From Candidatus Hydrogenedens sp. (GTDB lineage Bacteria > Hydrogenedentota > Hydrogenedentia > Hydrogenedentales > Hydrogenedentaceae): a DNA stretch of 56,029 nt. The DNA lies in assembly GCA_049968235.1 (NCBI GenBank), contig JBMFRC010000021.1:1-56029 (forward strand). Reading direction: 5' to 3'. The notes beneath the pieces are model-generated. The model did not search any database, was not told where the DNA came from, and saw only the letters and a list, made by a program, of their open reading frames with translations. Positions within the stretch are counted from its first letter, which is position 1, and each line of letters opens with the position of its first letter. The position numbers and the translations under genes are program-made. Of this stretch, positions 14,536-47,345 are shown one piece after another.

Positions 14536-17445
14536 GTGAGAAAAAAATTAATTCGAATAATAAAATATACCATCATCAGCATTGCAATCTTCATATTCAT
14601 CATCATTATATCTCTTTTCGTTATTTGGTCACTATTTCTAATAAAAGATTCTGTATCTTTCAACCCTACAAAAAATATTTCCATTACTCTATCCGGTTTT
14701 TCTGTTTTTCCGAAGATTTCTCTAAAAAATGTGGCTATTCAGGTGAACGATTATAACACAGATGTGGAGTTTCAGAATATCCAGTTACAATCCTTTATAA
14801 AAAACCGACATATTTATATCGAAGCATGTAATATCTATATTGACACAACATTTCAACCCTCCCATACAACGAAAGAAGAAAGAAAATCTAATCAAAAAAA
14901 GGATGTCTTCAATTTCCAATCTTTTTTTACCTATTTACCTCAAAAATTATTTGTCAAAAACATTTCTGTATTTATTAAAAATACCGAAAGAACATTTTTT
15001 ATATCAGGTATCCCGCTTACAATAGATAATGCACAAAACCTTATTTCCTTTTCTTCTACAGATGCTGTTATGGGAATTGTCTATAATGGACAGAAAAAAT
15101 CTATCACAGGGACAGTTGATATATATTACAAATTCCTGCAGGATTCTCAGGAAATTGGAAGCAATATCCAGTTTTCACCTTACATGCTTGCTCGTGCAAA
15201 AGTAACTTTTGATAACACAACACAAAAAATTAACATGGAGGATATATATTTATCTCTTGATGAAAATGTATCTCAATCTTTGTCTCCATTGCTTCGTTCC
15301 GTGTTTTCTTTCCCGGTAGACTGGCAAAAAATTCAAATAAATAATCTTCATGGCAGTTTTTATTATCAAAACGCTCGATGGATACCCAAAAATATCAATG
15401 GTTATCTCTCCTGCTCTTCTCTAAAAATAGGAGATAAAGAAAAACCATGGCTCCACTATACCTCAGAGATTCATATACATTCCCAATATATAGAAAACGA
15501 AAAAATAACAGAAGTGGTGATGAATACGGATAAAGACCCTTTATGGGAAATGAACTGGAAATATAATCATGGGAACCAAAATACCTTTCTGGATTTTTCC
15601 TGCAGAACTATACAAGGAAAAACCATTCAGAATATATCGCCTTTTTTATACCATACTTTCTTATTAAAACAAATAGAGCCCTTTTCCGCAGAATGTTCTT
15701 TGTCTCTACAAGGGCTTTTCCCTGCTCTGGGAGGGAATATTCGAGGGAAATTGTCCCTTTTTGATGTTAATAATATACAACTCAATAGCAGTCTAAAAAT
15801 TTCACCATCCAATAATGGCTCTAACTCAATGAAATGGTCTGGAGATGTAAACATTTTATCCAACCCCATTCATTTTTCTGCGGAATTTACACCTCCTACC
15901 TCTTTTATATCCCATATTCATACAGAAAATCTGCCAACAAAATTTATACAATCGTTGACACCTTCTTTAGTAAAAAATGTATTCGACAAATCGCTTGCAG
16001 ATATGGATATTACAATTAAGGGGACCGATTGGAAAAATATGGATTTGCAATTCAAAGGGGAATTAACATCGGGAAACGAGGACGAGGAATATCTACCTAT
16101 TGTGCCGTCACAATTTCATTTTCAGGGAACAATTCAAAATTTAGATACTCTTGTTGGTGCTTTTCATCTATCTTCAGAGAATTCTGCCGATTTCGAGTTA
16201 AATCCTTGCACATTACATCTTTTCCCTTTATCACTGGAAGGCGATGTAAAAACAAAAGTTTATCTTTCAACGATTGCTTTAGAATTCATTCCTTTTTATA
16301 TTCCGGGCAAAGCAAGTTTTGGGGGGAAACTCTATTGGAATGGCGATTGGGGAATTAAGATTCAGGGGTCAGGTTCAGGAGAAGGCTTAGGAATAAACGG
16401 ATATACGCTTCCGGAAGGAATTCCTTTATGTTTCAATACCAATCTAACCGGGGATTTTTTAGATTATACCTGTGCGTTTGAAAATTTAAAATTGGGATTT
16501 GCAAATTGTGAATTGGGAAATATTCAAAAATGCAAGATACTTCTGCCCAAGGATAACCAGAATTTTACCCTAAACATTCAAAATCTGGACATTAAAGGGA
16601 AATTTGAGGATTTACATGATTGGGGAATTTCACAAGATAGTCAGGGAACATTCTATCTCTCAGTAAAGAATTTTGAATATAAGGATAACACGATTAATAG
16701 TGGGGAGATAGAATGGGATGTAAATATTACAAATTTAAGCATACCTACATGGCAAATACAAATAAATCATTTGATAACGCAATCCCAGACTCAAAATTTA
16801 ACGAATACAGATTTGACAACGAACATTAAAATAGACGAATTTACTTTGCAGAAAATAAAAGTGGCTCAAATAGAAAATAGATTGAAATTTCAATTACTAC
16901 CGCTTAAAGTAGAGATAACAAACATGAATGGGAATTTATGGAATGGCACATTTAATACACGGGGAACTCTTCAAAAAATAGAAGATTCATTAGTGGGAAA
17001 TATTATCGGTGAATATAGAGGTATTGATTTATCTCAATTCACAACAGAACTTCGCCCACCCTGGGTAAATCTATCCGGACGAGGCAATGGAAATTTTGAT
17101 GCCAATATTAACTTCACCACAGGGCAACTTGTCGAGGGAAATTTTAGTCTCGCATGTCCAGAAGGATTAACTATTAACCGAGATGTCCTGCTCCAGTTAA
17201 TCCTATATTTACAAAATGTCAGTATCGTTCAGAAGCAACTTGAAAAATTATTGGGAGAAGAAGACCCAAAACCATTTACAAACGGAGAATTAACTATAGG
17301 ATTTAAAGATAGTCAGGCAACGGTTTCCTTACTCCTAACAACGCCAAACATTAATTTAGCACCTATCTTTTATATCAATGCAGATTGGAAAACACTTTGG
17401 TCCCTTTTAACAACCCAATCTGGTGTCCAGATAGAAATCAAATAA
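14536..17445 (+). CDS. large membrane-anchored hypothetical protein (AsmA-like architecture guess)
   Basis: 969-aa ORF with a GTG start. It has an N-terminal transmembrane anchor (IISIAIFIFIIIISLFVIWSLFLI), then an Asn/Ile/Thr-rich beta-prone sequence with no catalytic motif I recognise. It is divergently transcribed from the hybrid HK. Confidence 0.5.
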   Translation: MRKKLIRIIKYTIISIAIFIFIIIISLFVIWSLFLIKDSVSFNPTKNISITLSGFSVFPKISLKNVAIQVNDYNTDVEFQNIQLQSFIKNRHIYIEACNIYIDTTFQPSHTTKEERKSNQKKDVFNFQSFFTYLPQKLFVKNISVFIKNTERTFFISGIPLTIDNAQNLISFSSTDAVMGIVYNGQKKSITGTVDIYYKFLQDSQEIGSNIQFSPYMLARAKVTFDNTTQKINMEDIYLSLDENVSQSLSPLLRSVFSFPVDWQKIQINNLHGSFYYQNARWIPKNINGYLSCSSLKIGDKEKPWLHYTSEIHIHSQYIENEKITEVVMNTDKDPLWEMNWKYNHGNQNTFLDFSCRTIQGKTIQNISPFLYHTFLLKQIEPFSAECSLSLQGLFPALGGNIRGKLSLFDVNNIQLNSSLKISPSNNGSNSMKWSGDVNILSNPIHFSAEFTPPTSFISHIHTENLPTKFIQSLTPSLVKNVFDKSLADMDITIKGTDWKNMDLQFKGELTSGNEDEEYLPIVPSQFHFQGTIQNLDTLVGAFHLSSENSADFELNPCTLHLFPLSLEGDVKTKVYLSTIALEFIPFYIPGKASFGGKLYWNGDWGIKIQGSGSGEGLGINGYTLPEGIPLCFNTNLTGDFLDYTCAFENLKLGFANCELGNIQKCKILLPKDNQNFTLNIQNLDIKGKFEDLHDWGISQDSQGTFYLSVKNFEYKDNTINSGEIEWDVNITNLSIPTWQIQINHLITQSQTQNLTNTDLTTNIKIDEFTLQKIKVAQIENRLKFQLLPLKVEITNMNGNLWNGTFNTRGTLQKIEDSLVGNIIGEYRGIDLSQFTTELRPPWVNLSGRGNGNFDANINFTTGQLVEGNFSLACPEGLTINRDVLLQLILYLQNVSIVQKQLEKLLGEEDPKPFTNGELTIGFKDSQATVSLLLTTPNINLAPIFYINADWKTLWSLLTTQSGVQIEIK

Positions 17446-17617: not shown

Positions 17618-18384
17618 AATGAGACCTCTGAACAATTCGTGTAAGATGTTATGGTATAAGTTATATATGTTTTTACGAGATAAAATCCCGATGAGAAATT
17701 AACATACAAAAGTCTGTATCTCTACTTTTATCCATTTTATTTGCTATTTTCTGTCAGGTTTTTTATTTTCTTATTACCTATGTATATCTTTCCTCTTGCA
17801 CCCTTAATTCCCCATACATCCGCTTCAAATTATATGCAATCGTTAACAGGAAATGATATACTCCTCTCTATATGCACCTCTGTATCCTCTGTGCTCCTCC
17901 GTGTCCTCCGTAGTGAAAAAGATATAATCAACCAGAGAGACACAGAGAAATTATAACTCACTGCTCAACAATACATACAATAGTAAGGACAAAAGCCTCC
18001 ATTATTCCCAGTTCGCTTTATATACTCCTTTCTCTATTATGCACCTCTGCTCAAATTTCCTTCCATTCCATCACTTCTTGCATCTGCCTCAAAAAATATC
18101 TACGACAGATCAGTTTCTGATAGAACATCTCGTAATCTACAAAATCTCTTTGTTCTATCTCTATCTATAAAACTTATTTCCTCCATCTCTTATATACCAT
18201 ACTGCGAGGACCTTTCTTCATTTTTAGTTTTTCCTTGCTTTGTTATTCAAACCAATACAATACCTCTACAATATGTATATGCTATATCCATACACTTCTT
18301 TTTCTCATCTCGTCTCATCTTTTCCTGCCTACTTCTCGTATAAAACATATCTCATTAACCATATGATTTATCCAGAGGTCTCAG
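17618..18384 (+). repeat. MITE-like non-coding element, copy A (~767 bp), with 16-bp terminal inverted repeats TGAGACCTCTGAACAA / TTATCCAGAGGTCTCA
   Basis: Left terminus aaTGAGACCTCTGAACAAttcgtg at 17618. Right terminus ttTATCCAGAGGTCTCAgat ends at 18384. The interior is roughly 80% identical, with indels, to the reverse complement of 37918-38618. For example, cactgctcaacaatacatacaatagtaaggac and ctcttgcatctgcctcaaaa are shared. No conserved ORF is present and the top strand is pyrimidine-rich. Confidence 0.75.
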
Positions 18385-18538
18385 ATATGGATTTTGCAAA
18401 TGAATGCGAAGGATTTTTTCATCTATTAATTCTTTTTTTTCTGTCTCTCTGGTCCCATAACACGGATACGATAGTTATACACATATTTGCCCCCATGGAG
18501 GACAGTATTAATTAAACCTTTGTTTCCTGTTTCCCCCC

Positions 18539-20395
18539 TTATAATCCAGGGCAGTAGCGGTCTTCGCCGTCTGGACAAGGATGGTAGCCACCTATGTTAA
18601 AGTACTGGATTAACCGCAATAATTCGGATAGGTTTATCATCCAATCCTGAGGATTATAGTCTGATGCATGCGGTATGCAACTCTTATCCCCTTCAAATCC
18701 AGGAATATAGCCATCCTCTGACTCCTCTCCCGGCAAGGCACAATGATACCCTTGCATATTGAAAAACTGTATCACGCGTAATAACTCGGGTAGATTTATC
18801 TGCCAATCTCCATTTTGGTCTGCACTATGTGATGGTGTTTCCCCCTCGCCTTCAGTCATTCCTTCGCCTTCTACTGCTCCTTCCACGATACCTTCGCCAT
18901 CAGCACTACCTTCGGATATCCCTTCCGTTGTACCTTCGACGGTGCCTTCAACTGTCCCTTCGCCATCAGGGGTTCCTTCGAGAGTCCCTTCTGCGATACC
19001 TTCGCCTTCCATTACTCCTTCACCCTCGATAATTCCTTCGCCTTCAAAACTACCTTCGGATATACCTTCTGTGGTGCCTTCAAATGTCCCTTCGCCATCA
19101 GGGGTTCCTTCGCCTTCGGGTAAGGCAAGACAATCTGTTGGAATTTCGTCCGTATTACGGTTATCAACTGGGTCTAAATAATTCGGAATACCATCATTAT
19201 CTGAATCCCATGGTAACGGGTCATATACATCCCGAATGAGGTCGCAATCGTCGTCTAAATCATCCGGGTCCATCCAACCATCTTCATCAAGGTCGTCATA
19301 AGGTCGCATATATGGTGTAATTCCGATATCTGTGGTAAATATAAACTGTCCATTAGAAAAGTTAATCTCAATAAAGTATGCTTTCCACCCTGTTTCAGGT
19401 GGTATTACTGTTGCAAGATATGTTTTTGAACCGGGTGATGTTTCGCTTAAATTAGAAGATGTCCATGTTGGTCCTGCTCCATCGTAATAGCGGAAATCAC
19501 GAGCATTTGGATTTAGAGCCTGCCATAACTTTACAGAAGTTGGATTTGTTGCCACCTGCACCTGAATACTCCCATCGGGTAAAAATTGCCAGGAATAGTT
19601 AGGTCTGCTTCCGCCACTTGTAACAGAGTTAAAATAGGTAATAAGAGCAATAATACTATTGTAATCACTGGTTAGATTTTCCAGACTATGCCCCGAATTG
19701 GGGACATATCTTAAACGCTTTTCGCCGGGCAGTTCATTGTAATAAAAACGGGAAGAATCGGGTAGGAAAAATTCATCTCCACTGGCATTGATTATAAATT
19801 TTGGCATTGTATAGTTATTCAGGTAAGAATAGGGGTCTACAATCTGTCTCAGGGCATATCCTCCGGGGGTACTCATTCGTTCAAATATATGCAATTCATT
19901 ATAAGGGGTTAATCTCTCTGAGAAGAAGCCATAACATTTGTATTGATGGTCCATCTGAACATTCATCTTAAGGACATCAATTACAATGGGGACAATGGCA
20001 ATGACTCGTGAATCAACCGCTCCCGTTAGCCAAGTAGTCCAACCTCGTTTGGATGCACCCCCAATGACAAAACCACTTATTGTTTTGCCATGATTATTTA
20101 ATACAATCTCTTCGATAGTGTCCATGGCACGGACAGCACTTTTTACCATCGGCAAAAGGACAGGCCAGTAAGGGTCTGGTGTCCCTGCATTATAAGTTTG
20201 CAAATATTTATCAAAACTGTAAGCAATAATTTGGTCCTCTGTCCGACTAAGAGTCTCGTCTTTGAAAAGAAGCGGTTGATTGGGAACCTGTTCAAGTAAT
20301 GCAACAGGAGCACCGGTTAATATTGCAACATACTGAGCATAATCCCGAAGGTTAGTGGCGGAGGAGCCGTTGTTTCCTCCGGATATTATCAACAA
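18539..20395 (-). CDS. PhoPQ-activated pathogenicity-related (PqaA-family, alpha/beta-hydrolase-like) secreted protein with TSP3-like Ca-binding repeats, an (EGx)n linker and two C-terminal dockerin-like repeats; main body downstream of an in-frame TGA
   Basis: VIGGASKRGWTTWLTGAVD is the PqaA-family signature. Then come DDLDEDGWMDPDDLDDDCDL...DSDNDGIPNYLDPVDN (thrombospondin-type-3-like). About 35 Glu-Gly-x triplets follow, encoded by a 9-nt periodic DNA repeat at 18840-19140. Two dockerin-like segments close the protein: DQNGDWQINLPELLRVIQFFN and DYNPQDWMINLSELLRLIQYFN. The same frame continues upstream through TGA at 20447-20449 into ORF 20447-20671. Confidence 0.6.
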   Translation of the reverse strand: MLIISGGNNGSSATNLRDYAQYVAILTGAPVALLEQVPNQPLLFKDETLSRTEDQIIAYSFDKYLQTYNAGTPDPYWPVLLPMVKSAVRAMDTIEEIVLNNHGKTISGFVIGGASKRGWTTWLTGAVDSRVIAIVPIVIDVLKMNVQMDHQYKCYGFFSERLTPYNELHIFERMSTPGGYALRQIVDPYSYLNNYTMPKFIINASGDEFFLPDSSRFYYNELPGEKRLRYVPNSGHSLENLTSDYNSIIALITYFNSVTSGGSRPNYSWQFLPDGSIQVQVATNPTSVKLWQALNPNARDFRYYDGAGPTWTSSNLSETSPGSKTYLATVIPPETGWKAYFIEINFSNGQFIFTTDIGITPYMRPYDDLDEDGWMDPDDLDDDCDLIRDVYDPLPWDSDNDGIPNYLDPVDNRNTDEIPTDCLALPEGEGTPDGEGTFEGTTEGISEGSFEGEGIIEGEGVMEGEGIAEGTLEGTPDGEGTVEGTVEGTTEGISEGSADGEGIVEGAVEGEGMTEGEGETPSHSADQNGDWQINLPELLRVIQFFNMQGYHCALPGEESEDGYIPGFEGDKSCIPHASDYNPQDWMINLSELLRLIQYFNIGGYHPCPDGEDRYCPGL

Positions 20396-36917: not shown

Positions 36918-37916
36918 ATGAATAGGAATACTATTTTGCTTATATTATTCTTCGGAATTATTTGTAATTTGCCCTGCCAATCGTATCATACCTTGATCGA
37001 CTTACATACCGCACCGGGATGGGCTTCGGAAAATGGTGGGACAACAGGCGGAGGAAAATCAAAACCTACTACAATTAAAACGATAGAAGAACTTCAAACT
37101 CTGGTCTCTACAGAAGAACCACAAACAATACTTGTAAGTGGGACCATGGGAGCAGGACTTTCTACAAAAATAAAAGTAAACTCAAACAAGACTATCATGG
37201 GTTTAGACAAGGCACTTATAAAAGGCAGTTTTACCATTAAAGATGCAAAAAACATTATCATCCGGAATTTGACGATTGAGGGTCCCGGTGCCATTGATGT
37301 GAATGCTCCATACTGTATTACAATAGATAATTCAACAAATATATGGTTAGACCATCTTGATATATACGATGGTTAGGATGGAAATGTTGATATTGTTAAT
37401 GGTTCTAACTACATTACCATATCATGGTGCAAGTTCCATTATACTTCTGCTTCGAAAAATCATAAATTGTCAACACTCATTGGTAATTCAGATGAAAAAA
37501 TATCCGACAGAGGAAAATTGAAAACTACAATGGTATATAACTGATGGGCAGAAGGCGTTGATTCGCGTACGCCAAGAGTTCGCTTTGGACAGGTGCATGT
37601 CATAAACAATCTCTACACATGCACAGAAAATGATTACTGCATTCTGGCAGGCATGGAAGCAAACTTGAGAATCGAATATAATTTATTTGTAAATGTAAGA
37701 GAACCTATCAATTTATCTCAAAAAACATTTACTGCTGTTAGCGACTCAAACAATAAATTCCTATCAGTCAAAGGGAACACTGAGGGAAAAGGAGACGCCT
37801 TTAAGCCCCCCTATAATATAACCATTATCCCATTAAATAAATTAGAAATGATTATAAAAAAGTATGCAGGAGCCAATCTTCCTCATATTAAAAACGAAAT
37901 ATTCTGTGAACAATAG
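36918..37916 (+). pseudogene. pectate lyase (polysaccharide lyase family 1) with two in-frame nonsense codons (TAG 37374-37376, TGA 37542-37544) and no frameshift
   Basis: Signal peptide, then GWASENGGTTGGGKS...ILVSGTM...IKVNSNKTIMGL...IIRNLTIEG...IWLDHLDIYDG*DGNVDIVNGSNYITISWCKFHYTSASKNHKLSTLIGNSDEKISDRGKLKTTMVYN*WAEGVDSRTPRVRFGQVHVINNLYT.... This closely parallels Bacillus or Erwinia PL1 motifs (GYASxNGGTTGG, vWIDHxxfs...DGxxDIkxgSdyVTvSwn.F..HdKxmLiGhSD, RMPRVRFGqvHvyNNYY). The track reports only the flanking pieces 36918-37376 and 37593-37916. Confidence 0.7.
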
Positions 37917-37917
37917 A

Positions 37918-38618
37918 ATGAGACCTCTGAATAAGTCATTCGAGTTAAGTAGTATATTTATATAGGGGAAGAGGATGGGTGGAAAATGAAACGAGAAGAG
38001 GGAAAAGTGGTATATATATAGCAGAAGTATTGGGGGATGAATGACAAAACAAGGAAGAACTAAAAATAAAGAAAGGTCAACGCAGTATGGTATATAAGGG
38101 ATGGAGGGAATAAGTTTTATAGATAGAGATAGAGCAAATAGATTTTATATATTATGTGATGTCCTATCATAAACCGCCCCGTCGTAGACGTCTTTTGAGG
38201 CAGATGCAAGAGGTAATACCATAAAGGAATTTTGAGCAGAGGTGCGTATAGAGAAGAGTATATAAAGTAAACTGGGAAGAACGGAGACTTCCATCTTTAC
38301 TATTGTGTGCATTGTTGAGCAGTGAGTGATGATTTCTTTATATTCTCTTTGCAGGGAATTTAATCGGTGGCGGTAAAACGATTTTTTTCTACGTTTCTCT
38401 ATGTCTTCTATGGTGATTATATTTTTAATTCCAAAGGGAGCAAAAGGAGAAATATGCATAGACAAAAAAGATAGAAAAATAGACAGAAAATAACAAATAA
38501 AATGGGTAATTTTAGAGATACAGAATTTTGTATTTTAATTTCTCACCGTGATTTTATCTCATAAAAACATATATAACTTATACCCTTACCTCTTACACCA
38601 CTTGTTCAGAGGTCTCAG
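37918..38618 (-). repeat. MITE-like non-coding element, copy B (~701 bp), inverted relative to copy A; same TIRs TGAGACCTCTGAAYAA
   Basis: Left terminus aaTGAGACCTCTGAATAAgtc at 37918, 1 bp after the PL1 stop. Right terminus cttgTTCAGAGGTCTCAgtt at 38603-38618. The reverse complement aligns with 17618-18384, for example gtataagttatatatgtttttatgagataaaatcacggtgagaaatt versus gtataagttatatatgtttttacgagataaaatcccgatgagaaatt. Confidence 0.75.
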
Positions 38619-38710
38619 TTGCATAAAAAGATATTTTTTAATTAATTTAAATTTGACATTTGCGGAAATAAGTTATAAAATAAAAGTAATATAAAATAGC
38701 AAAATATGTT

Positions 38711-39733
38711 ATGCAAAACAAGGGGTTTACGCTGATTGAGTTGTTGGTAGTCATCGGGATTATTGCAATTTTGGGTGCTATTCTTTTACCGGCATTGGCA
38801 AGGGCACGTGAAGCAAGTCGTCGTGCAAGTTGTCAAAATAATCTTAAACAATGGGGTAGCATTTTTAAGATGTATGCTAATGAGAATAAAGCGGAACGCT
38901 ATCCACCTGTTCAGATAGAAATTATGCCTTTATCTGACCGTCCTAATCGTATGGATGCTTTTGCTGCACCGGGTCCGATGGTTCATTGTATTTATCCGGA
39001 ATACCTTACAGACCCTTCAATTATTATCTGTCCTTCGGATGCTCAGGACTCTATTCGGGATTTAAAATTTACTGAGGATACTTCTTTTGCTCGTGCAGGC
39101 GATTGGAAGTTTCCCTATTATCTCTGGGAGAAGGGTTGTGTTACAGCCATATCTGCAAGCTATATCTATTATGGATGGGTTCTGGACCGAATGGGTTCGA
39201 GACCGGAAGAAGTTGCGGTATTAAATACATTGCCGGAGATTAGTATTCTTATTAGCCTCTTAGGAGCGGATTTTTATGCAGAATATACTTTTCCGATACA
39301 GTTTATTATGTCTGCTTATCAGTTAGCATCGAACAATCTGGTTGCTGTGGAAGGATTATTAGACCCGGCATCGGCTACGGAGGAACAACGAAAAGCAATC
39401 CGTGATGCCCTTGACCAGGATATAACCGGTCCTTCAATTCAACAATATCATTGTGGGAATGGTGGTGGGAATACGGTGTATCGAATGCGGGAAGGTATCG
39501 AGCGATTTATGATAACGGACATTAATAATCCGGGTGTTGGAGCACTTGCGCAGAGTGAGATTATAGTTATGTTTGACCAGATAGGTTCTCAGCAGGGAAT
39601 ATCTTTGTATAATCATATTCCCGGTGGTTGCAATGTATTGTATATGGATGGGCATGTGGAATTTATCCGATATCCAACAAAAGCCCCTGCTATTGAACCT
39701 GTAGTTAATACACTATTGTTATTGTTTTACTAA
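38711..39733 (+). CDS. DUF1559-family protein with prepilin-type N-terminal cleavage/methylation domain (pseudopilin-like)
   Basis: [49 protein letters not shown] is a type IV prepilin leader plus the hydrophobic helix and SCxNNLKQ motif typical of DUF1559. C-terminal ...[15 protein letters not shown]. Confidence 0.85.
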
Positions 39734-45811: not shown

Positions 45812-46319
45812 AGTTTTTACTCCTTACAGTTTAATTTAATATGAGGTAATTTTGTTTTTTTTCTGTGTCTGCCCTCACAGACACAAGGATGTTCTAATTT
45901 TATCGGACACATCGCTCTTCCCAACTCCAGCGAGTTATCTCGTTATTATTCATTCCTCCTTTCTGCTCGCAGATTTCGGAATTGGTGACGATGAACTTTC
46001 ATATTAAATTTGAAGTATGTTATCACATAATAAAACCCTTTGTCAAGTAAAAATATTCAAATTTTTAAAAAATATTTAAAAAATCTTTTTTTTTCTAAAA
46101 CACAATATTTTGTGCGAATTATTAATTTTAATCACTATATAACAGCCTGAAGAGAGAATAGTCCATATAAATTCCATTTAATACTTAAACTTAACTTTTC
46201 AGCCACACAAAGAAAAAATATAAAAAAAATAAATGATATTCAAAATATTTCCCCGCCTATCTCTTAATAAAATCTTATCGTGTTTTTTACCCATAGATAA
46301 AAATATAAGGAGTAAAAAA

Positions 46320-46763
46320 ATGGAAAAAGATGTAATGAGAACTAATCATTGCAAATCCAAACCAGTAGACATCAAATCCCCGGATAATTTTCGGAATACG
46401 ATTTTTGTATCATCGCAATTCTTAGAAGAAATTTCTGAAACGCAATCTTTATGGTATGAGACACCTGAAGAAATTGAGAGGAAAATTCAATGGGGGAAAG
46501 AAAAAGCCCATCTACTTAATTGGGTAAAGAAGCAAATGGAAAGGAAGTTAACTTTAAAAGAAAAGAAATATATTGAGTGTTATTACTTGCAAGGAGAAAC
46601 ACTTGAGGTTATATCTAAACGATTTCACAGTCATCCTGCCAATATTCACCGAACCATACGACGCGGGATAAAAAAACTTATTCAATTAACAAAAAATGAA
46701 AATCTCCATTTTCATTTAGTTCGTATGAAGCGTTCAAGGAAATCTCTTCATAAAGACAAATAA
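46320..46763 (+). CDS. small sigma-70 region-4-type HTH protein (sigma-factor-like / transcription regulator)
   Basis: C-terminal LTLKEKKYIECYYLQGETLEVISKRFHSHPANIHRTIRRGIKKL matches the sigma-70 region 4 / ECF HTH pattern (LpxRxRxVfxLxxxeGlSxxEIAxxLgxsxxtVKsrlxRArkkL). ATG 46320 with RBS AAGGAG is preferred over the track start 46233. Confidence 0.55.
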   Translation: MEKDVMRTNHCKSKPVDIKSPDNFRNTIFVSSQFLEEISETQSLWYETPEEIERKIQWGKEKAHLLNWVKKQMERKLTLKEKKYIECYYLQGETLEVISKRFHSHPANIHRTIRRGIKKLIQLTKNENLHFHLVRMKRSRKSLHKDK

Positions 46764-46835
46764 AATTTTATTTTTCTAATCACTCAATATAAAATATCTA
46801 TAAAATTTGATTTAAACACGAATGTGGAGTAGAAA

Positions 46836-47345
46836 ATGAAGAATAATATTGTACTTATTGGTATGCCCTGGTCTGGAAAAAGTACCCTTGGAGTGTTATT
46901 AGCGAAATCATTGCGATGGAATTTTATCGATACCGATTTATTAATCCAATCGGACATGGGTAAATCTCTTCAACAAATCATTGATGAACAGGGTGTCGAG
47001 GTATTCCGCCACATCGAAGAAAAGTATGTTTTATCTATTCATCCAGAAAAATGTGTCATTGCTACGGGTGGAAGTGTCGTATATAGCGATAAATCTATGG
47101 AACACTTAAAAAATCTCGGGATAATTATTTATTTAAAATATCCTTTTGAAGAAATCAACCGACGGGCAAAAAGTGTAGAAGAACGAGGTTTAGTTCGGAT
47201 GAAAGGGCAGACATTGTTCGACTTATATCAAGAAAGAACCCCACTGTACGAACGATGGGCAGAAATTTCTATTGAATGTAACCAACAGAATCACGAACAG
47301 GTGGTTGAGAAAATCCTCTCCGCTATCAAAACAAATTGTTCGTAA
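46836..47345 (+). CDS. aroK: shikimate kinase
   Basis: NIVLIGMPWSGKSTLGVLLA is the P-loop. ...FIDTDLLIQ is the shikimate-binding Asp-Thr-Asp region. ...IATGGSVV is the GGG-like lid motif. Confidence 0.8.
   Translation: MKNNIVLIGMPWSGKSTLGVLLAKSLRWNFIDTDLLIQSDMGKSLQQIIDEQGVEVFRHIEEKYVLSIHPEKCVIATGGSVVYSDKSMEHLKNLGIIIYLKYPFEEINRRAKSVEERGLVRMKGQTLFDLYQERTPLYERWAEISIECNQQNHEQVVEKILSAIKTNCS

What the first reader, a model, noticed from the sequence alone, without database searches (positions are those of the whole stretch)
37918..38618. Copy B of the TIR element is inserted 1 bp after the stop codon of the nonsense-disrupted pectate lyase and ahead of the DUF1559 gene
The left TIR starts at 37918, and the PL1 stop TAG is at 37914-37916. 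So the element abuts, and may have trimmed, the 3' end of the pectate lyase gene. Its other end lies ~90 bp upstream of the DUF1559 pseudopilin gene, where it could supply promoter or terminator activity. Copy B is 66 bp shorter than copy A because of internal indels, which suggests an old insertion.
Basis: seen in the sequence. Interest (0 to 1): 0.5.

Follow-up and report, generated by a model that had tools for sequence, protein, structure and literature searches.

The report
Decayed MITE-like repeat beside dead pectate lyase
A 699-bp non-coding repeat with inverted ends sits between a dead pectate lyase gene and a pilin-like gene in an uncultured Candidatus Hydrogenedens genome; it looks like an old, inactive miniature transposon that neither cut the lyase gene nor supplies the neighbour's promoter, so it is ordinary.

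Summary
Copy B is window 37919-38617 (699 bp). It ends in TGAGACCTCTGAA...TTCAGAGGTCTCA, a perfect 13-bp TIR (17/18 when extended). It starts 2 nt after the lyase TAG and ends 93 bp before the DUF1559 ATG. Copy A (17620-18383, 764 bp, opposite strand) is 65 bp longer. The two copies are 77% identical over aligned columns, and their similarity starts and stops exactly at the TIRs.

The contig is a Candidatus Hydrogenedens MAG. The element has no conserved ORF, no Pfam remnant, no Rfam hit and no structure conservation between copies. It is absent from orthologous loci of related species and from about 158 kb of their DNA. A third, diverged copy is implied in another Hydrogenedens MAG.

Best reading: an old non-autonomous TIR element, MITE-like. 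Two weaknesses remain: neither copy has a target-site duplication, and no parent transposase was found.

- The lyase is not trimmed. It has 332 codons against 327-332 in orthologues, and it was killed by two point nonsense mutations.
- DUF1559 has its own TTGACA-17-TAAAAT promoter outside the element.

Both copies lie at synteny breakpoints. Interest is low.

The parts
37919..38617 (+). Copy B of the repeat, 699 bp. Non-coding; the + strand is purine-rich (A 36.5%, G 22%, T 29.5%, C 12%).
   Evidence: Also 100% identical at the same site in the same-species MAG contigs L001 and L002.
37919..37936 (+). Left terminal inverted repeat of copy B: TGAGACCTCTGAATAAGT.
   Evidence: I1: 18 nt, 94% complementary; first 13 nt perfect.
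38600..38617 (+). Right terminal inverted repeat of copy B: ACTTGTTCAGAGGTCTCA.
17620..18383 (-). Copy A of the repeat, 764 bp, in inverted orientation relative to B. It lies between the convergent 3' ends of a 969-aa protein with no Pfam domain and a PhoPQ-related protein.
   Evidence: TIR arms are 17620-17638 and 18365-18383, 84% complementary over 19 nt.
36918..37916 (+). Pectate lyase (PL1, PF00544) pseudogene. 332 codons, with in-frame TAG at 37374-37376 and TGA at 37542-37544. Its length is normal.
38653..38681 (+). Sigma-70-like promoter match (TTGACA-17-TAAAAT, 11/12) for the DUF1559 gene. It starts 36 bp beyond the element's right end.
   Evidence: An equivalent site exists in the element-free orthologue L019.
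38711..39733 (+). DUF1559 / prepilin N-methyl domain gene, 340 aa.

Best explanation
Copy B and copy A are old, decayed copies of a non-autonomous, TIR-bounded transposable element. It is MITE-like, about 700-760 bp, with TG...CA ends and the terminus TGAGACCTCTGAA, and it appears confined to Candidatus Hydrogenedens.

Inferred mechanism: a transposase encoded elsewhere once bound the conserved termini and moved the element into intergenic DNA. No such enzyme is encoded in this window, and today the copies are inert.

Shown:
- Two copies lie in unrelated contexts, and their similarity begins and ends exactly at the TIRs.
- The termini are far better conserved than the adjacent interior.
- There is no coding capacity.
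- The element is absent from orthologous positions in relatives.
- Copy B has no demonstrable effect on its neighbours. The lyase has its full length and was killed by two point mutations, and DUF1559 keeps its own promoter in the 93-bp spacer.

Inferred:
- Transposition itself.
- That the missing target-site duplications and the position of both copies at synteny breakpoints reflect age and/or recombination between copies.
For: - TIRs: all four termini match the 13-mer at 0-1 mismatch, which is well above chance. A/B similarity starts at TGAGACC and ends at GGTCTCA, and the flanks are unalignable.
- Termini conservation: 18/20 identical at each end, against 65% in the adjoining left 110 bp.
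- No coding capacity: no ORF is shared by the copies. Six-frame Pfam scans of all six frames of B and the three purine-strand frames of A found nothing above cut-off.
- Third copy: an exhaustive phmmer search with B's longest ORF against 1.84 billion proteins found a single hit. It is a 55-aa 'hypothetical protein' (MGC8739773.1) from another Ca. Hydrogenedens MAG, 53% identical, in a frame that is broken in copy A. This implies a third, diverged copy in another genome.
- Absence from orthologous loci: L013/L014 (lyase side), L019 (DUF1559 side, 66-bp spacer to lgt), and L020-L022 (copy A side). An nhmmer profile of A+B found only A, B, L001 and L002 in the window plus about 158 kb of related Hydrogenedens loci.
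- Boundary: homology to L013 ends at window 37920.
Against: - No target-site duplication at either copy for k=2-12, with boundaries shifted by up to 4 nt, or with flanks swapped as an A/B inversion would produce (plus reading of the flanks).
- No clean empty site. In every relative the gene order also changes at the element position, so insertion cannot be separated from rearrangement.
- No autonomous partner or transposase was found. There is none in the window.
- Scans with the 21-nt right end returned only chance hits from 185,579 species genomes and from JGI metagenomes.
- Only two full copies were seen.
- Contig breaks inside the element in L001 and L002 are weak evidence of multicopy status. 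These MAGs also break in unique sequence (L016 ends inside the lyase; P0245's contig ends inside the 969-aa gene).
Confidence: 0.65

Rival explanations
1. It is the decayed remnant of a very small autonomous insertion sequence (700-770 bp, the size of IS1 or IS200) whose transposase gene has eroded beyond recognition, rather than an element that was always non-coding.
For: The size is compatible with the smallest IS elements. Copy B keeps a 106-codon ORF. The strong strand asymmetry (G about 2x C) is the kind of bias that coding sequence can leave.
Against: The 106-codon ORF lies on the purine-poor strand and is frame-broken in copy A. It has no homologue among 1.84 billion proteins other than a spurious ORF on another copy. 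Six-frame Pfam scans are empty.
Confidence: 0.1
2. It is a dispersed, non-mobile repeat, or a recombination scar. The sequence spread or was retained through genome rearrangements, and the inverted termini are a by-product.
For: Both copies sit exactly where gene order differs from every relative examined. There are no target-site duplications. Conservation between the copies is mosaic, block by block.
Against: Recombination alone does not explain why both copies end in the same 13-bp inverted repeat, or why these termini are the best-conserved part. Synteny among these relatives is poor in general, so coincidence with breakpoints is weak evidence.
Confidence: 0.12
3. It is the gene for a large purine-rich non-coding RNA whose 5' and 3' ends pair (the 'TIR' being a closing stem).
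For: The purine-rich strand folds better than shuffles: z = -3.9 for B and -8.1 for A. The strand asymmetry is shared by both copies.
Against: No Rfam family matches at gathering score or at a meaningful E-value. Base pairs of one copy's MFE structure are kept in the other no better than a substitution-matched null, z = -0.5 to +0.4 on either strand. No promoter-like or terminator-like site is shared by the copies. The complementary strand of B also folds better than shuffles, z = -3.4, and the terminal repeat pairs in every fold. The test has low power with only two sequences.
Confidence: 0.06
4. It is an invertible DNA switch (inverton): a recombinase flips the 670-bp segment between the inverted repeats to switch the downstream pilin-like DUF1559 gene.
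For: Copy B lies directly upstream of a surface-structure-type gene and is bounded by inverted repeats.
Against: Copy A lies between two convergent 3' ends, where a promoter switch has no target. There is no recombinase in the window. DUF1559 has its own promoter outside the segment. The same-species contigs L001 and L002 show the same orientation as the window. There is no outward-facing promoter match at the right end.
Confidence: 0.04

Closest known systems
Bacterial MITEs (miniature inverted-repeat transposable elements: non-autonomous deletion derivatives of IS elements)
   Same: Small size (about 700 bp). Perfect or near-perfect terminal inverted repeats. No transposase. Intergenic location. 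More than one copy per genome. Absent from orthologous sites in relatives.
   Different: No target-site duplication at either copy. It is at the upper end of the MITE size range. No parent IS with the same termini has been identified. Only two complete copies were seen.
IS families with TG...CA termini (IS3, IS21, IS481; retroviral-integrase-type DDE transposases). This is recalled from general knowledge, so it is a lead and not a test.
   Same: The element begins 5'-TG and ends CA-3'.
   Different: No transposase. None of the 3-8-bp duplications that these families make.
Invertons (fimS-like or Bacteroides-type invertible promoters)
   Same: Inverted repeats bound a few-hundred-bp segment upstream of a pilin-like gene (copy B).
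   Different: A second homologous copy sits between convergent gene ends. There is no recombinase nearby, no internal outward promoter, and a single orientation in three assemblies.

Membership tests
MITE / non-autonomous TIR transposon | Terminal inverted repeats at the exact ends of the repeated unit | tested here: met
   13/13 complementary in B and 12/13 in A. A/B similarity begins and ends at these repeats.
MITE / non-autonomous TIR transposon | Small size and no transposase coding capacity | tested here: met
   699 and 764 bp. No shared ORF, no Pfam match in six-frame scans, and no protein homologue apart from a spurious ORF.
MITE / non-autonomous TIR transposon | Direct target-site duplication flanking each copy | tested here: not met
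   No match for k=2-12 at either copy, with boundary shifts of up to 4 nt or with swapped flanks. Decay or inter-copy recombination could explain this, but neither is shown.
MITE / non-autonomous TIR transposon | Multiple dispersed copies in a genome | tested here: inconclusive
   Two copies in 56 kb. A third, diverged copy is implied in another MAG. The rest of the genome could not be searched, and contig breaks in L001/L002 are ambiguous.
MITE / non-autonomous TIR transposon | Empty sites: otherwise collinear orthologous loci that lack the element | tested here: inconclusive
   The element is absent from orthologous loci L013, L014, L019 and L020-L022, but the neighbouring genes also differ there.
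MITE / non-autonomous TIR transposon | A cognate autonomous IS with the same termini | not testable with these tools
   Exact scans with the right-end 21-mer gave only chance hits in the genome and metagenome collections. The source MAGs could not be searched by DNA.
Inverton | Both orientations present in a population; a site-specific recombinase; a promoter inside the segment | tested here: not met
   Same orientation in the window, L001 and L002. No recombinase among the window ORFs. No conserved internal promoter. Reads were not available.
Known structured RNA families (Rfam 15) | Match to a covariance model at gathering score | tested here: not met
   No hits at gathering score. Only E>2 noise in E-value mode, for both copies.
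Composite transposon (two element copies mobilising the DNA between them) | Flanking copies that are transposition-competent, with accessory cargo between them | tested here: not met
   The 19.5 kb between A and B carries core genes: rpsB, tsf, pyrH, frr, uppS, cdsA, a release factor, lysS and others. The block is not contiguous in relative L013. The copies encode no transposase.

The most novel reading that the evidence does not exclude
The element represents an undescribed family of TIR elements, specific to Hydrogenedentes, that insert without duplicating their target. Alternatively, its copies may act mainly as recombination substrates, which would explain why both sit at synteny breakpoints and so contribute to the unusually scrambled gene order of these genomes. 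A less likely version is that the purine-rich strand is a new large non-coding RNA.
Probability: 0.2. Interest if true: 0.4.

Novelty: new member of a known kind. Interest (0 to 1): 0.2.

Why it matters
It matters mainly for annotation.
- The 699 bp between the lyase pseudogene and the DUF1559 gene is repeat DNA. It is not a regulatory region or a gene.
- A 55-aa 'hypothetical protein' in another Hydrogenedens MAG (MGC8739773.1) is probably a spurious call on a copy of the same repeat.
- The lyase was lost through point mutations, not through the element.

If the family proves abundant, it could serve as a marker for strain typing and for studying rearrangements in an uncultured phylum. Nothing here bears on an open question.

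Tried and rejected
- DNA scans for more copies. The right-end pattern ACNANTTGTTCAGAGGTCTCA returned 5 hits in genome contigs and 4 in metagenome contigs. A 16-mer returned 1 hit in viral contigs. All share only the roughly 20-nt seed with the element, so they are chance matches.
- blastn of copy B against plasmids and phages: no match.
- Exact look-ups of 11 element ORFs in the 15-billion-protein collection: none present. P0241's contig could not be fetched.
- Same-species look-ups with the PhoPQ-related and rpsB proteins: not on record.
- Inversion between copies A and B. Relatives do not place the 969-aa gene next to the lyase, or the PhoPQ gene next to DUF1559. Swapped flanks give no duplication either.
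- The two 969-aa ORFs near the two copies are unrelated. One is an MFS/spermidine-synthase/TPR fusion; the other has no Pfam domain.
- The RNA-gene reading found no support.
- Literature searches returned nothing relevant.

Full report
**What is in the sequence**

Window 37919-38617 is a 699-bp segment. It begins TGAGACCTCTGAATAAGT and ends ACTTGTTCAGAGGTCTCA. The first and last 13 nt are perfectly complementary, and 17 of 18 are when the repeat is extended.

A second copy lies at 17620-18383 (764 bp) on the opposite strand. A search for the 13-mer with up to two mismatches found all four termini at 0-1 mismatch. The four other matches, at 2 mismatches, are unrelated. That is 8 matches in total against 1.2 expected, and no shuffle of 100 reached 8.

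Aligning the copies with their flanks shows that similarity starts at the T of TGAGACC and stops at the A of GGTCTCA. The flanks do not align. Identity is 531/692 aligned columns (77%), with 79 gapped columns. By region it is:
- 90% at the termini;
- 65% in the next ~110 bp on the left;
- 82% in the centre;
- about 51% in a poorly alignable middle-right block, where copy A carries an extra ~48 nt including 9-nt repeats;
- 84% on the right.

- The lyase TAG is at 37914-37916.
- The element starts 2 nt later, at 37919.
- It ends 93 bp before the DUF1559 ATG at 38711.
- Copy B is 65 bp shorter than copy A.

**Source organism and context**

The window is a complete 56,029-bp contig of a Candidatus Hydrogenedens MAG (the nearest homologues are also named Hydrogenedens).

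Copy B lies between a PL1 pectate lyase reading frame and a DUF1559/prepilin gene. Copy A lies between the convergent 3' ends of a 969-aa protein with no Pfam domain and a PhoPQ-related protein.

The 19.5 kb between the copies holds core genes: rpsB, tsf, pyrH, frr, uppS, cdsA, a release factor, lysS, a lolCE-like pair, and a two-component system. No ORF of 110 aa or more in the window matches a transposase or recombinase family.

**Is it coding or an RNA?**

No ORF is shared by the two copies. Six-frame translations hit no Pfam family above cut-off.

The longest ORF is 106 codons, on the minus strand of copy B. It was scored against 1.84 billion representative proteins and found one hit. The hit is a 55-aa 'hypothetical protein', MGC8739773.1, from a different Ca. 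Hydrogenedens MAG. It is 53% identical over window 38148-38312, and that frame is broken in copy A. I read this as a spurious gene call on a third, diverged copy of the repeat in another genome. Its DNA could not be fetched.

Rfam gave nothing for either copy.

Both strands fold somewhat better than shuffles (z = -3.9 and -3.4 for B, -8.1 for the purine-rich strand of A). The terminal repeat pairs in every fold. I mapped one copy's MFE pairs onto the other and compared them with a substitution-matched null. Pairs are kept no better than chance (z between -0.5 and +0.4, both strands, both directions). With only two sequences this test is weak, but it gives no support for a structured RNA.

The element does have a marked strand bias, with G about twice C, shared by both copies. 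I cannot explain this.

**Is it an insertion?**

- Same species. Contigs from two other MAGs (L001, L002) carry copy B at the same site with 100% identity, and both end inside it. These assemblies also break in unique sequence, so the breaks are only weak evidence of a multicopy repeat.
- Lyase side. In a relative whose lyase is 78% identical (L013/L014), the order HisKA - sigma-54 regulator - Memo - lyase is kept and the lyase is intact. It is followed by unrelated genes, and no element is present. DNA homology with the window runs to 37920, the element's first bases.
- DUF1559 side. In a relative whose DUF1559 protein is 94% identical and whose downstream 969-aa MFS/spermidine-synthase/TPR protein is 84% identical (L019), DUF1559 is preceded by lgt with a 66-bp spacer and no element. 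Three further relatives lack DUF1559 at this position.
- Copy A side. In relatives L020-L022 the histidine kinase and the 969-aa gene are kept. Homology stops at the stop codon (17445), and different genes follow.
- Wider search. An nhmmer profile of A+B found only A, B, L001 and L002 in the window plus about 158 kb of related loci.

However, both copies sit exactly at synteny breakpoints, so no clean empty site exists. In addition, neither copy has a target-site duplication at any length from 2 to 12, with shifted boundaries, or with flanks swapped as an A/B inversion would produce.

**Effects on the neighbours**

The lyase frame has 332 codons. Its ten closest homologues are 327-332 aa and end at the same alignment position, so nothing was trimmed. 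It is disrupted by a TAG where all ten homologues have Q, and by a TGA where all have W. Each is one transition away from CAG and TGG respectively. Neither mutation is connected with the element.

The DUF1559 gene has an 11/12 match to the sigma-70 consensus (TTGACA-17-TAAAAT, 38653-38681) in the spacer, starting 36 bp outside the element. The element-free orthologue L019 has TTGACA-17-TATAAT at the same 29-nt distance from its ATG.

The weak promoter-like and terminator-like matches inside copy B have no counterpart in copy A.

**Interpretation**

The best-supported reading is an old, inert, non-autonomous TIR element: MITE-like, with TG...CA ends. Its termini have stayed nearly invariant while the interior diverged, as expected for transposase-binding ends.

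I do not file it as a proven MITE, for three reasons:
- The duplication test failed.
- No parent IS is known.
- The copy number is unknown.

Age and recombination between copies could explain both the missing duplications and the breakpoint positions, but that is inference. Rivals are a decayed tiny IS, a non-mobile repeat or rearrangement scar, an RNA gene, and an inverton. Each has specific evidence against it, listed above.

**Searches that found nothing**

- Exact scans with the right-end 21-mer in species-representative genomes and in JGI metagenomes gave only chance hits.
- Phage and plasmid collections gave no match.
- The literature search found nothing relevant.

**Verdict**

Of the interpretation, 'old mobile-type repeat' is reasonable, while 'trimmed the lyase' is refuted and 'supplies the promoter' is unsupported. 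This is an ordinary feature of low interest. Its value is for annotation of Hydrogenedens MAGs.

Noticed in passing
window 17620-18383 and 37919-38617, compared with L013, L017-L023: Both repeat copies lie exactly where gene order differs from every related Hydrogenedens contig examined. Synteny is kept up to the stop codon of the adjacent gene and then lost. The two copies are inverted relative to each other and bracket 19.5 kb of core genes.
   Followed up: partly
window 37374-37376 and 37542-37544: The two in-frame stops in the pectate lyase replace a Q (TAG) and a W (TGA) that are invariant in ten orthologues. Both are single transitions. The only same-species contig covering the gene (L016) ends before the first stop, so a sequencing or assembly error could not be excluded.
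   Followed up: partly
protein MGC8739773.1 (P0241), another Ca. Hydrogenedens MAG, contig of 10,290 bp: This annotated 55-aa 'hypothetical protein' is 53% identical to a non-conserved reading frame inside copy B. It is probably a spurious gene call on a diverged copy of the repeat.
   Followed up: partly
window 14536-17445 (+): A 969-aa protein with no Pfam domain. It has only five homologues in 5.8 billion clusters, with named sources all Ca. Hydrogenedens. In the window and in the three related loci fetched it lies next to a divergently transcribed PAS/HisKA/receiver hybrid kinase. Its function is unknown.
   Followed up: no
window 18830-19117 (inside ORF 18539-20395, minus strand): A region of 18-nt-periodic imperfect repeats (CCTTCGCCTTC...) lies inside the PhoPQ-related gene. 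The 3' end of the gene (18538-18691) shows 66-76% DNA similarity to the 3' end of an unrelated 813-aa PASTA-domain gene in L013/L014. This may reflect a shared C-terminal domain.
   Followed up: no
window 38682-38713 versus L019 4945-4975: The DUF1559 gene in the window has no obvious Shine-Dalgarno sequence and has two ATGs 5 nt apart (38706, out of frame, and 38711). Its 94%-identical orthologue in L019 has AAGGAGG upstream of the start.
   Followed up: no
window 37920-37925 and 38611-38616; 17621-17626 and 18377-18382: The termini of both copies contain outward-facing GGTCTC, the recognition sequence of BsaI/Eco31I-type IIS enzymes. This is probably coincidental; the hexamer occurs 22 times in the window.
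   Followed up: no
window 46001-47000: This is the lowest-GC stretch of the contig (0.29, against about 0.34-0.44 elsewhere). It lies around a 176-aa ORF with no Pfam match (46233-46763).
   Followed up: no
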